Assembly (NCBI GenBank): GCA_964016885.1
Contig: OZ024750.1
Coordinates: 22,444,001-22,508,000, forward strand
Source of the DNA: Eledone cirrhosa
Lineage: Eukaryota
Direction: 5' to 3'
DNA length: 64,000 nt
A program made the position numbers and the translations under genes. Below are positions 2,033 through 2,228 of the stretch, piece after piece (position 1 is the stretch's first letter; each line of letters starts with the position of its first letter). The notes under the pieces are model-generated. The model was not told the origin of the DNA. It made no database searches and saw only the letters and a list, made by a program, of their open reading frames with translations.

Positions 2033-2228
2033 TAACGAAGGAAATGTGGTGAGGAACCAGGTGGACCATAACGCACCAAAGTACTCAATACTTGAGGTAG
2101 TAGAGTGGGTAATAGGAACCAGTAAGACCCCGACAGCTGAGCTCAAGCCGTTTCGACGGCTAATTCTGGACGCCAGAATTAGCCGTCGAAACGGCTTGAG
2201 CTCAGCTGTCGGGGTCTTACTGGTTCCT
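2033..2228. mobile_element. Fold-back PLE-like terminal element carrying the 3' half of a hammerhead, inserted in (TA)n
   Basis: Perfect ~115-bp palindrome at 2113-2228 plus a unique tail; flanked by (TA)n on both sides. Related copies at 7159-7244, 16998-17140, 17161-17365, 19400-19570, 29052-29095, 38201-38392, 59025-59205. Confidence 0.7.

What the first reader, a model, noticed from the sequence alone, without database searches (positions are those of the whole stretch)
2033..2228. Fold-back family retaining only the 3' half of a hammerhead, suggesting self-priming on stem II
Seen: copies at 2113-2228, 7159-7244, 17161-17285 and 38285-38392 are near-perfect palindromes. Each arm reads stem-GAA-ACGGC(T)..(A)GCCGT-C-GGGGTC, i.e. 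GAAA, stem III, a GUC site and a stem I 3' strand, but no copy has CTGANGA. In 2033-2228, 17161-17365 and 38201-38392 one arm continues into a ~85-bp unique tail ending at (TA)n while the other stops early at a TA junction (e.g. GTTCC|TATA). Loops differ between copies and arms within a copy match each other better than other copies, so the inversion arose repeatedly. Inference: cDNA folds back at the ribozyme's long stem II and copies itself, deleting the catalytic 5' half and leaving cruciform/dsRNA-forming hairpins. At 19530-19600 the second arm has a different stem III (GAAACGCT..AGCGTT).
Basis: partly seen in the sequence, partly recalled or inferred. Interest (0 to 1): 0.75.

Follow-up and report, generated by a model that had tools for sequence, protein, structure and literature searches.

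The report
Mirror-image stumps of Penelope retrotransposon
These small palindromes are stump-sized insertions of a very young, very abundant Penelope-like jumping gene that lands in TA repeats, and their mirror halves were likely built anew at each landing: a known quirk of this element class, seen here in thousands of fresh copies.

Summary
Window 2034-2230, 7163-7241, 17158-17365 and 38202-38396 are near-perfect palindromes (arms 32-65 nt, 92-100% complementary). Three carry an 81-nt tail on one arm only. None has CUGANGA.

They are not a family of their own. They are 5'-truncated 3' ends of a ~3.6-kb Penelope-like retrotransposon (RT plus C-terminal GIY-YIG, Hydra-clade motifs, pseudo-LTR) that inserts into (TA)n. 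The genome holds 7,996 tail-less and 7,811 tailed ends as exact 25-mers.

Its core is YUGANAA (A8, not G8) in 57 of 57, which resembles the U3-A8 variant published for these elements.

An inverted 5'-truncated copy plus a one-sided tail is the published insertion architecture of these elements, and self-priming has been proposed for it.

New here are the numbers:
- 45 of 47 head-to-head pairs combine one tailed and one tail-less arm.
- The tail-less arm ends at a TAT microhomology.
- Turn points are coupled between arms.
- Turn points cluster in the helix II loop (25 of 38).

Many tail-less arms outrun their tailed partner. Pure snap-back on stem II cannot explain that. I favour dual priming on one RNA, with modest confidence.

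This scan earlier found the same kind of object in a shark genome.

The parts
2034..2171 (-). Copy 1, tailed arm. The 81-nt tail is 2034-2114, followed by stem I 3' strand, GUC, helix III, GAAA and helix II 3' strand.
   Evidence: blastn against a natural pseudo-LTR, positions 562-699; sequence
2173..2230 (+). Copy 1, tail-less mirror arm, ending GTTCC|TAT at (TA)n
   Evidence: 58-nt arms, 100% complementary, 3-nt loop
7163..7241 (.). Older palindrome of a diverged family. It keeps GAAAC-GGCAAGAGCTCAGCC-GTC but has different stems I and II, and neither arm has a tail.
   Evidence: 32-nt arms, 97%
17016..17126 (+). Family C copy with tail. It is preceded by what looks like a ~12-nt inverted stub (GAAAAGAGCCAG), a strongly asymmetric fold-back by my reading.
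17158..17222 (-). Copy 3, tail-less mirror arm
17223..17365 (+). Copy 3, tailed arm (tail 17285-17365)
   Evidence: the tail is 100% identical to at least 41 other genomic copies
19414..19542 (-). Family C tailed arm
19546..19655 (+). Chimeric second arm: 23 nt of family C sense sequence, then a switch at the shared CGAAACG into the 3' end of family F, a different repeat with a CUGAUGA..GAAAC motif
38202..38337 (-). Copy 4, tailed arm (tail 38202-38282). This subfamily's private variants are shared by both arms.
38339..38396 (+). Copy 4, tail-less mirror arm
58989..59083 (+). Tail-less copy with no mirror arm, 5'-truncated in the helix II 5' strand and flanked by TA repeats on both sides. It shows that the tail-less end also occurs alone.
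59143..59215 (.). A tail fragment on the - strand (59143-59185) joined to a short tail-less arm on the + strand (about 59186-59215). The arms do not overlap, as in classical twin priming.
29064..29096 (-). Isolated 33-nt fragment of the tail

Best explanation
The fold-backs are 5'-truncated 3' ends of a ~3.6-kb Hydra-type Penelope-like retrotransposon inserted into (TA)n, and the second, tail-less arm was likely made at each insertion when both nicked target strands primed reverse transcription on one RNA (one at its 3' end, the other at an internal UAU 81 nt upstream) and the two cDNA ends were then joined by a template switch.

Shown directly:
- The parent element, with its RT/GIY-YIG reading frame, pseudo-LTR and (TA)n flanks.
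- Variable 5' truncation.
- Almost every head-to-head pair combines one tailed and one tail-less arm.
- The tail-less arm stops at TAT next to the TA repeat.
- The two arms share private variants.
- Inner ends are coupled between arms and cluster in the A/U-rich loop of helix II.
- Tail-less ends also occur alone, including at the 3' end of a full-length copy.

Inferred:
- Which strand primes where.
- That one RNA serves both primers.
- That the junction forms by a jump of one cDNA end onto the other.
- That the hot spot reflects pausing, slippage or RNA ends in the AAAAAUUUUCAUUU tract.

The half hammerhead is simply what remains of the pseudo-LTR's hammerhead-like motif after truncation. The motif's core (YUGANAA) resembles the A8 variant already described for these elements. 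Its cleavage activity is untested.
For: Identity. Walking upstream from the tail gives ever longer copies with ragged 5' ends. L099 holds a complete unit (1605-5100) behind a partial tandem copy, with the junction ..CCTTCGTT|ATCTAGCTCC. Its reading frame has RT motifs (FDIESYYASI, YRDDG) and a GIY-YIG module. There are 168 homologues at E<=0.001, the best at 5.7e-125. The nearest Atlas clusters carry RVT_1, HTH_animal and GIY-YIG. An alignment of 20 sequences shows RW(K/R), DKT, CxCX5C, CxxC..E and N..CxH, the Hydra-clade features listed in PMC8557442 section 11.

Abundance and youth. There are 7,996 tail-less and 7,811 tailed exact 25-mers. All 41 scored tails are 100% identical.

One tail per pair. 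45 of 47 head-to-head neighbour pairs are mixed, 2 are tail-less with tail-less, 0 are tailed with tailed. 38 of the 40 fetched pairs are mixed.

Tail-less arms that cannot be self-copies.
- 5 of 38 pairs have the tail-less arm longer by 4-20 nt.
- In 5 of 10 tail-less ends that had no exact-match partner, the tailed arm starts only at REF 430-460 while the tail-less arm reaches 392-406.
- Window 59143-59215 has non-overlapping arms.
- In the long copies L032, L038, L044, L045 and L053 the tail-less copy is the longer one.

Internal priming exists on its own: window 58989-59083 and the full-length L099 copy both end tail-less in TA repeats.

One template for both arms. Arms share subfamily variants: the permutation gives 0 of 10,000, and 9 of 10 fold-backs whose tail-less arm carries a minor 11-nt haplotype are concordant (the exception is L010).

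Template switching between families at the shared CGAAACG occurs at window 19546-19655.
Against: 12 of 38 pairs have the tailed arm longer, and 21 of 38 are symmetric within 3 nt against 9 expected. That pattern is what snap-back copying predicts most simply. Dual priming needs an added assumption to explain it: run-off at a broken RNA 5' end, or one polymerase stopping where the other did.

Dual priming on one RNA also requires the 3'-end cDNA to displace the internal cDNA. No biochemistry supports this for these enzymes.

Three fold-backs (window 17158-17365, L020, L021) carry CCAACT in the tailed arm but CCTACT in the tail-less arm. L010 has arms of two subfamilies. That is unexpected if both arms copy one RNA.

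Fold-backs with a tail on both arms exist (L101, L104/105, L115/116, L123/124).

Pfam gave no significant domain on the window genome's own frames, so the RT and endonuclease assignments rest on motifs, homologues and Atlas neighbours.

Confidence: 0.5

Rival explanations
1. Snap-back self-priming. The first cDNA, primed at the RNA 3' end, stalls. Its 3' end then turns round and copies the nascent cDNA. The new sense strand is captured by the TA repeat on the other side of the break at the first TAT, which leaves that arm without the tail. This is the published self-priming idea for these elements, and it is the reader's idea without the role for stem II.
For: Symmetry: 21 of 38 pairs have inner ends within 3 nt against 9 expected (0 of 20,000 permutations), including at unusual positions (377/377, 378/378, 379/379, 414/414). 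In 12 of 38 pairs the tailed arm is the longer one, as if the loop belonged to the first cDNA. Arms share private variants. The tail-less boundary sits at the first TAT met on the sense strand. The chimera at 19546-19655 fits a snap-back strand that anneals to another cDNA at CGAAACG. Arkhipova et al. 2013 infer self-priming from palindromes at inverted junctions (PMC3846280, passages read).
Against: It cannot produce tail-less arms longer than the tailed arm: 5 of 38 pairs, 5 of 10, window 59143-59215, and the long copies. It does not explain tail-less ends that stand alone (window 58989-59083; L099 3' end). It does not explain arms of different subfamilies (L010), nor the recurrent CCAACT/CCTACT discordance.
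Confidence: 0.33
2. One reading: the long stem II of the ribozyme is itself the fold-back primer, so the inversion is a consequence of the hammerhead's structure.
For: Turn points cluster at REF 387-400, inside the loop of the long helix II, in 25 of 38 tailed arms and 24 of 38 tail-less arms. Gaps between the paired 25-mers of 53-92 nt occur in 34 of 47 pairs.
Against: The fold-backs lack the helix II 5' strand. Opposite GAATTAGCCGTC lies its perfect complement, not the natural bulged strand GCTCGGCTATTC, so no helix II pairing was available to prime. Symmetric fold-backs occur well outside helix II. A/T stutter fillers at the turn (L104, L166, L184, L198) point to the slippery A5U4 tract rather than the helix.
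Confidence: 0.07
3. A palindromic master copy, or a foldback or MITE-type DNA element, amplifies as such with TA target-site duplications.
For: TA flanks on both sides; small size; high copy number.
Against: Inner junctions, loops and fillers differ from copy to copy. One arm has an 81-nt tail and the other has none. The same 3' end belongs to a 3.6-kb RT-encoding element with ragged 5' truncations.
Confidence: 0.02
4. The palindromes arise after insertion, at the DNA level, by replication template switching or break repair in fragile TA repeats.
For: TA microsatellites are fragile. Some centres carry complex fillers.
Against: The near-strict rule of one tailed and one tail-less arm (45 of 47), and the fixed outer boundary at TAT, are properties of the insertion event rather than of later rearrangement. 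Copies are 99-100% identical, hence very young.
Confidence: 0.03

Closest known systems
Insertion architecture of endonuclease-bearing Penelope-like elements: pseudo-LTR, adjacent inverted 5'-truncated copy, one-sided 'tail' (Craig et al. 2021, PMC8557442; Arkhipova et al. 2013, PMC3846280; passages read)
   Same: Partial tandem copy forming a pseudo-LTR (L099). An inverted 5'-truncated copy head-to-head. An extension present at only one end. Palindromes at the inverted junction. Strong 5' truncation. (TA)n targets.
   Different: The tail is 81 nt here, against the 30-40 nt (31 nt) reported. Most copies are stumps of 80-200 nt. The one-tail rule and the TAT boundary are quantified here; I did not see such counts in the passages I read.
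Hydra clade of C-terminal-endonuclease Penelope-like elements (Craig et al. 2021, section 11, read whole)
   Same: RW(K/R) motif; DKT instead of DKG; CxCX5C linker; CxxC and CxH around the conserved E and N; insertion into (TA)n; single reading frame.
   Different: The unit is ~3.6 kb, not under 3 kb. The paper reports canonical hammerheads for the clade, whereas this element has an A8 core. No tree against reference Hydra sequences was built.
Hammerhead variants of Penelope-like elements (Cervera and de la Pena 2014, PMC4209133; passages read)
   Same: Location in the pseudo-LTR. Short helix I (5 bp). Longer than usual helix II with unpaired nucleotides at its 5' end. A U3-A8 core covariation instead of C3-G8, present here in families B, C and D. 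That paper also notes dual motifs on opposite strands ~100-700 bp apart and ascribes single motifs to truncated elements.
   Different: Helix III here is a stable 5-6 bp stem with a palindromic loop, not a minimal one. Helix II carries a ~40-nt loop. The youngest family has C3 with A8, a mismatch. Activity is untested.
L1 twin priming (Ostertag and Kazazian 2001; recalled, not read here)
   Same: The second nicked strand primes internally on the RNA and gives an inverted segment joined to the direct 3' segment. Window 59143-59215 has exactly that non-overlapping layout.
   Different: In most copies here the two arms cover the same stretch of the element, giving a true palindrome. The internal priming site is fixed by TA microhomology.
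   Same: Stump-sized, hammerhead-bearing palindromes whose centres differ between otherwise identical copies, read as a mirror half built anew at each insertion.
   Different: A different genome and element. I did not re-examine that window.
Non-LTR retrozymes (Li et al., bioRxiv 10.64898/2026.07.22.740005; abstract and outline only)
   Same: Hammerhead-bearing non-autonomous derivatives of the pseudo-LTR of these elements.
   Different: Retrozymes are tandem repeats thought to move through circular RNA. The copies here are dispersed fold-backs, and I saw no tandem hammerhead arrays.

Membership tests
Penelope-like element (endonuclease-bearing) | Single reading frame with reverse transcriptase followed by a GIY-YIG endonuclease | tested here: met
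   RT motifs and a GIY-YIG module appear in translations. They are conserved over 20 homologues. Atlas neighbour clusters carry RVT_1, HTH_animal and GIY-YIG. Caveat: hmmscan against Pfam gave no family on the genome's own frames.
Penelope-like element (endonuclease-bearing) | Pseudo-LTR formed by a partial tandem copy | tested here: met
   L099: a 5'-truncated copy (about 906-1604, with tail) abuts the 5' end of a full unit (1605-5100). L110 shows the same tail-to-5'-end junction.
Penelope-like element (endonuclease-bearing) | Adjacent inverted 5'-truncated copy and a tail at only one end | tested here: met
   22 of 30 loci; 45 of 47 head-to-head pairs mixed; 38 of 40 fetched pairs mixed.
Hydra clade | RWK motif, DKT motif, CxCX5C linker, CxxC and CxH flanking the conserved E and N | tested here: met
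   RLRWR and SDKTGN in L095 frames. CNCPDGSIC, CNLCSEE and ACKH in P0001. All are conserved in alignment A2. The criteria come from PMC8557442 section 11.
Hydra clade | Absence of the CCHH motif inside the GIY-YIG core | tested here: inconclusive
   No CxxC lies inside the VIYQ..YIG core of P0001 or in alignment A2. I had no reference alignment of CCHH-bearing endonucleases to compare with.
Hydra clade | Insertion into (TA)n | tested here: met
   The outer flank is (TA)n in nearly all loci.
Hydra clade | Short element (under 3 kb) with a canonical hammerhead | tested here: not met
   The unit is ~3.5 kb plus the 81-nt tail. The core is YUGANAA in 57 of 57.
Hydra clade | Placement inside the clade on an RT tree | not tested
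   No reference sequences of the named clades were at hand.
Hammerhead ribozyme, type I | Core CUGANGA (C3..G8, A9) | tested here: not met
   0 of 57 5' halves have G8: 45 are CUGAGAA and 12 are UUGANAA. N7 varies (G, C, U, A) as expected for that position. U3 with A8 would keep the 3-8 pair.
Hammerhead ribozyme, type I | GAAA, three helices around the core, GUH cleavage site | tested here: met
   On 12 sequences of 4-5 families, 97.7% of cells pair in the named structure against 13.5-54.2% when partners are slid. Only 1 pair shows a change on both sides (G-C to A-U in helix II), so covariation support is thin.
Hammerhead ribozyme, type I | Match to Rfam hammerhead models | tested here: not met
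   No hammerhead hit at gathering score in the window, nor at E<=10 on L023 or on a 151-nt stretch. The test is weak: a motif with a CUGAUGA..GAAAC core at window 17380-17475 (-), which by eye has matching stems I and III, is also missed at E<=10.
Hammerhead ribozyme, type I | Self-cleavage | not testable with these tools
   The minimum-energy fold does not give the hammerhead and is not unusual (z -0.94).
MITE or foldback DNA transposon | Fixed terminal inverted repeats with target-site duplication, amplified as a unit | tested here: not met
   Inner junctions differ from copy to copy. The ends are asymmetric (tail against no tail). The parent is a retroelement.

The most novel reading that the evidence does not exclude
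The roughly 16,000 near-identical ends obey a one-tail rule and a fixed TAT boundary because integration of these elements always uses both nicked strands as primers on a single RNA, at two TA-complementary sites. If so, obligate twin priming, rather than self-priming, would underlie the pseudo-LTR, inverted-repeat and tail architecture of the whole element class. This genome would then be the natural data set to settle their unresolved transposition cycle.
Probability: 0.25. Interest if true: 0.6.

Novelty: new member of a known kind. Interest (0 to 1): 0.35.

Why it matters
The palindromes are explained by a known class of retrotransposon, so they are not a new kind of element or ribozyme.

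Their value is as data. How Penelope-like elements integrate is still undefined: Craig et al. [quoted passage not shown] This genome holds thousands of insertions so young that junctions can be read base by base.

Four results constrain any model and can be tested at the bench:
- the 1:1 ratio of tailed to tail-less ends;
- the near-absolute pairing of one of each;
- the TAT microhomology boundary;
- the coupling and clustering of turn points.

The element also gives a natural series of hammerhead cores with A8 (U3-A8 in older families, C3 with A8 in the most successful one). That bears on whether ribozyme activity matters for these elements at all.

For genome annotation, about 16,000 perfect short palindromes in TA repeats are a source of assembly error. 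They are also a possible source of hairpin RNA, which was not tested.

Tried and rejected
1. Rfam scans for a hammerhead found nothing. I first took that as evidence against a ribozyme. I then found that a neighbouring motif with a CUGAUGA..GAAAC core is also missed, so the negative carries little weight.
2. Pfam on the element's frames and on two homologues gave no significant family. The domain assignment had to come from motifs, homologues and Atlas neighbours.
3. My first two scripts for arm boundaries misplaced anchors because helix III is itself palindromic. Their tables were discarded in favour of local alignments.
4. The first genome sample ranks fold-backs and copies reaching the query's start highest, so it is biased. 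I replaced it with a tail-only query and then with exhaustive exact 25-mer lists. The 25-mer pairs miss arms shorter than REF 430 or mutated arms. The 20 'unpaired' ends show what is missed.
5. MITE or master-copy reading: rejected, because junctions vary.
6. Reading the second arm at 19546-19600 as a variant stem III of the same family: rejected, because it is a separate repeat family with 667 first-look candidates.
7. Minimum-energy folding of the full motif does not recover the hammerhead and is not better than shuffles, so it gives no support either way.
It was not pursued.
9. A look-up of this scan's notes for this genome found none.

Full report
THE OBSERVATION

- 2112-2169/2173-2230: 58-nt arms, 100% complementary, 3 nt between.
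- 7163-7194/7210-7241: 32 nt, 97%.
- 17158-17222/17223-17287: 65 nt, 92%.
- 38280-38337/38339-38396: 58 nt, 97%.

Each arm reads helix II 3' strand, GAAA, a 5-6 bp stem with the loop TGAGCTC, GUC, then GGGGU. The motif GAAACGGCNNGAGCTC occurs 11 times in the window against 0.06 expected. The tail string occurs 4 times against 0 expected. None of the 8 window copies I checked holds CTGANGA or YTGANAA on either strand. In three copies one arm continues into an 81-nt tail that ends ..CCTTCGTT before (TA)n, while the other arm ends GTTCC|TAT.

WHAT THE COPIES BELONG TO

The window lies in a 3.0-Gb genome at C10:22444001-22508000. A 135-nt query covering the arm plus tail found 1,356 first-look candidates. 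The 40 that were scored were 99-100% identical over the full query.

Some copies run further upstream (L018, L023, L030). Three rounds of walking gave copies with ragged 5' ends, the usual sign of 5' truncation.

L099 holds a whole unit of ~3.5 kb (1605-5100). A partial tandem copy precedes it, and that copy's tail abuts the unit's 5' end (..CCTTCGTT|ATCTAGCTCC). This is a pseudo-LTR.

The unit encodes one reading frame, broken by stops in L095/L099. The longest open stretch I saw is 519 aa in L094. [quoted passage not shown]

Pfam found nothing on these frames. However:
- 168 homologues were found at E<=0.001, the best at 5.7e-125.
- The nearest Atlas clusters carry RVT_1, HTH_animal and GIY-YIG.
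- An alignment of 20 sequences shows RW(K/R), DKT, a CxCX5C linker, CxxC before the conserved E, and CxH after the conserved N.

Those are the features Craig et al. 2021 list for the Hydra clade of Penelope-like elements, which also inserts into (TA)n (PMC8557442, section 11 read whole). Two listed traits are not met. The unit is longer than 3 kb, and the hammerhead is not canonical.

THE HAMMERHEAD QUESTION

Of these, 57 have a 5' half within 95 nt, and all 57 read YUGANAA: 45 CUGAGAA and 12 UUGANAA. None has G at position 8. Position 7 varies between families, as that position should. The older families B, C and D have U3 with A8. The youngest and most abundant family, A, has C3 with A8.

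Cervera and de la Pena 2014 describe, for hammerheads of these elements, a short helix I, a long helix II with an unpaired base at its 5' end, and a U3-A8 covariation of the core (PMC4209133, passages). So families B, C and D match a published variant, and family A departs from it at position 3.

Support from covariation is thin. On 12 sequences, 97.7% of cells pair in the structure I named, against 13.5-54.2% for slid partners. Only one pair changes on both sides. The minimum-energy fold does not give the hammerhead.

Rfam finds no hammerhead. It also misses a motif with a CUGAUGA..GAAAC core, and by eye matching stems I and III, at window 17380-17475 (-). That negative therefore says little. 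Cleavage activity cannot be judged here.

THE FOLD-BACKS ARE THE KNOWN INSERTION ARCHITECTURE

Craig et al. state that insertions of these elements are heavily 5'-truncated and often have an inverted 5'-truncated copy at the 5' end. They also have a 30-40 bp tail, often at only one end. Arkhipova et al. 2013 describe the same for rotifer elements, with a 31-bp tail, and infer self-priming from palindromes at the inverted junctions (PMC3846280).

NUMBERS FROM THIS GENOME

(a) Copy number. Exact 25-mers across the arm end count 7,996 tail-less ends (..GTTCCTATA) and 7,811 tailed ends (..GTTCCTATT).

(b) Pairing. The first 67 Mb of contig 1 hold 197 such ends, forming 47 head-to-head neighbour pairs. 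Of these, 45 combine one tailed and one tail-less arm, 2 are tail-less with tail-less, and 0 are tailed with tailed.

(c) Inner ends. I fetched 40 of the 42 short pairs; 38 are mixed. In those 38:
- The inner ends of the two arms lie within 3 nt in 21 pairs, against 9 expected if partners are shuffled (0 of 20,000 shuffles reach 21).
- The tailed arm is longer in 12 pairs.
- The tail-less arm is longer in 5 pairs.

(d) Hot spot. Inner ends fall at REF 387-400 in 25 of 38 tailed arms and 24 of 38 tail-less arms. That is the 3' part of the helix II loop, next to an AAAAAUUUUCAUUU tract. A/T stutter fillers occur at some turns (L104, L166, L184, L198).

(e) Ends without an exact-match partner. 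I examined 20 of the 103.
- All 10 tail-less ends have an adjacent inverted tailed partner. In 5 of them that partner starts only at REF 430-460, while the tail-less arm reaches 392-406.
- Of the 10 tailed ends, 7 have an inverted partner, 1 is a long copy running off the locus, and 2 have none.

(f) Arm similarity. Arms of one copy differ at 1.24 of 40 positions, against 6.27 for arms of different copies (n = 41; 0 of 10,000 shuffles as low).

(g) Samples taken by similarity agree but are biased. 22 of 30 loci have a tail-less mirror arm ending at REF 451-453. With a tail-only query, 16 of 30 loci have a tail-less mirror arm and 8 of 30 (5 places) a tailed one.

MECHANISM

Each copy has its own junction, so the mirror arm is made at insertion. 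Two models fit most of the data.

Snap-back model. The first cDNA turns round and copies itself, and the new strand is caught by the TA repeat at the first TAT. This explains the symmetry, the shared variants and the fixed boundary. It is the published proposal. It cannot give a tail-less arm that holds element sequence missing from the tailed arm. That is seen in 5 of 38 pairs, in 5 of 10 of the other tail-less ends, in window 59143-59215, and in the long copies L032, L038, L044, L045 and L053.

Dual-priming model. Both nicked strands prime on one RNA, one at the 3' end and one at the internal UAU. This explains those cases and three further facts:
- Tail-less ends also stand alone (window 58989-59083, the 3' end of L099).
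- Tailed-with-tailed pairs are almost absent among the exact-match pairs, because two primers cannot use the same site on one RNA.
- Chimeric arms exist.

To explain the symmetry, dual priming needs an added assumption: run-off at a broken RNA end, or stopping behind the other polymerase.

I put dual priming at about 0.5, snap-back at about 0.33, and the rest below 0.1 each. The identity of the copies as insertions of this element class I put at about 0.95.

The natural 5' strand of helix II is absent from the fold-backs, and symmetric fold-backs occur elsewhere along the element. The clustering of turns in the helix II loop is real and unexplained.

THE COPY AT 19520-19600

The left arm is family C (4,818 first-look candidates, 89-94% identical). 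The right arm copies 23 nt of family C and then, at the shared CGAAACG, continues as the 3' end of another TA-targeting repeat, family F. Longer copies of family F read CUGAUGA-AGGAC..GUCC-GAAAC. It is a template-switch chimera between two families, not a variant stem III.

VERDICT

This is a real feature, correctly seen, and explained as a new and very abundant member of a known kind. It matters mainly as an unusually clean data set on how these elements integrate.

Not examined:
- Supplementary files of the papers cited, which hold the reference sequences and hammerhead lists and might bear on the clade and core-variant statements.

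Noticed in passing
window 17380-17475 (-) and 19885-19975 (-): Two copies of another short element that ends in (TA)n. It reads AGAUUC-CUGAUGA-..-GAAAC-AG..CUGUA|GAAUCU (CUGAAGA in the second copy), a hammerhead-like motif with a canonical core and, by eye, matching stems I and III. 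Rfam does not report it even at E<=10.
   Followed up: partly
window 19546-19655 (+); L161-L165: Family F: a repeat with 667 first-look candidates at about 88-91% identity. It carries CUGAUGA-AGGAC-UAGC-GUCC-GAAAC and ends ..CTGTTTACCTTTTA before TA repeats. It is probably a second TA-targeting element of the same class or a derivative.
   Followed up: partly
window 41315-41340 (+), 4689-4720 (+), 3179-3217 (-): Further CUGAUGA..stem..GAAAC strings, for example CUGAUGA-GGUC-AAAAUA-GACC-GAAAC. I did not check them for stems I and III or for repeat membership.
   Followed up: no
window 17262-17284 against 17161-17183; L020; L021: In three independent fold-backs the tailed arm reads GGGGTCCAACTCG while its tail-less partner reads GGGGTCCTACTCG. 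The A variant does occur in tail-less arms elsewhere (29 exact matches genome-wide). The recurrent discordance is unexplained under both leading models.
   Followed up: partly
L104/L105, L166, L184, L198 (turn regions): Runs of A and T of up to ~30 nt fill the centre of some fold-backs. It looks as if the polymerase stuttered on the A5U4 tract of the helix II loop before switching template.
   Followed up: no
L010 (about 160 nt upstream of the anchor): Two tail-less ends of one subfamily face each other across a ~45-bp TA repeat. One of them is joined head-to-head to a tailed arm of another subfamily. This is a compound insertion, or arms copied from two templates.
   Followed up: no
L099 5200-5290: A tRNA-like stretch (GGCACATGGCTTAGTGGTTAGAG..GGTTGTGAGTTCAATTCTC) lies just after a (GA)n run beside the full-length element. 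It is probably a tRNA-derived SINE or a tRNA gene.
   Followed up: no
whole window: The window is dense in long (TA)n, (CA)n and (GA)n microsatellites. It holds at least 8 copies or fragments of these TA-targeting elements in 64 kb. The sequence is given in lower case throughout the stretches read.
   Followed up: no
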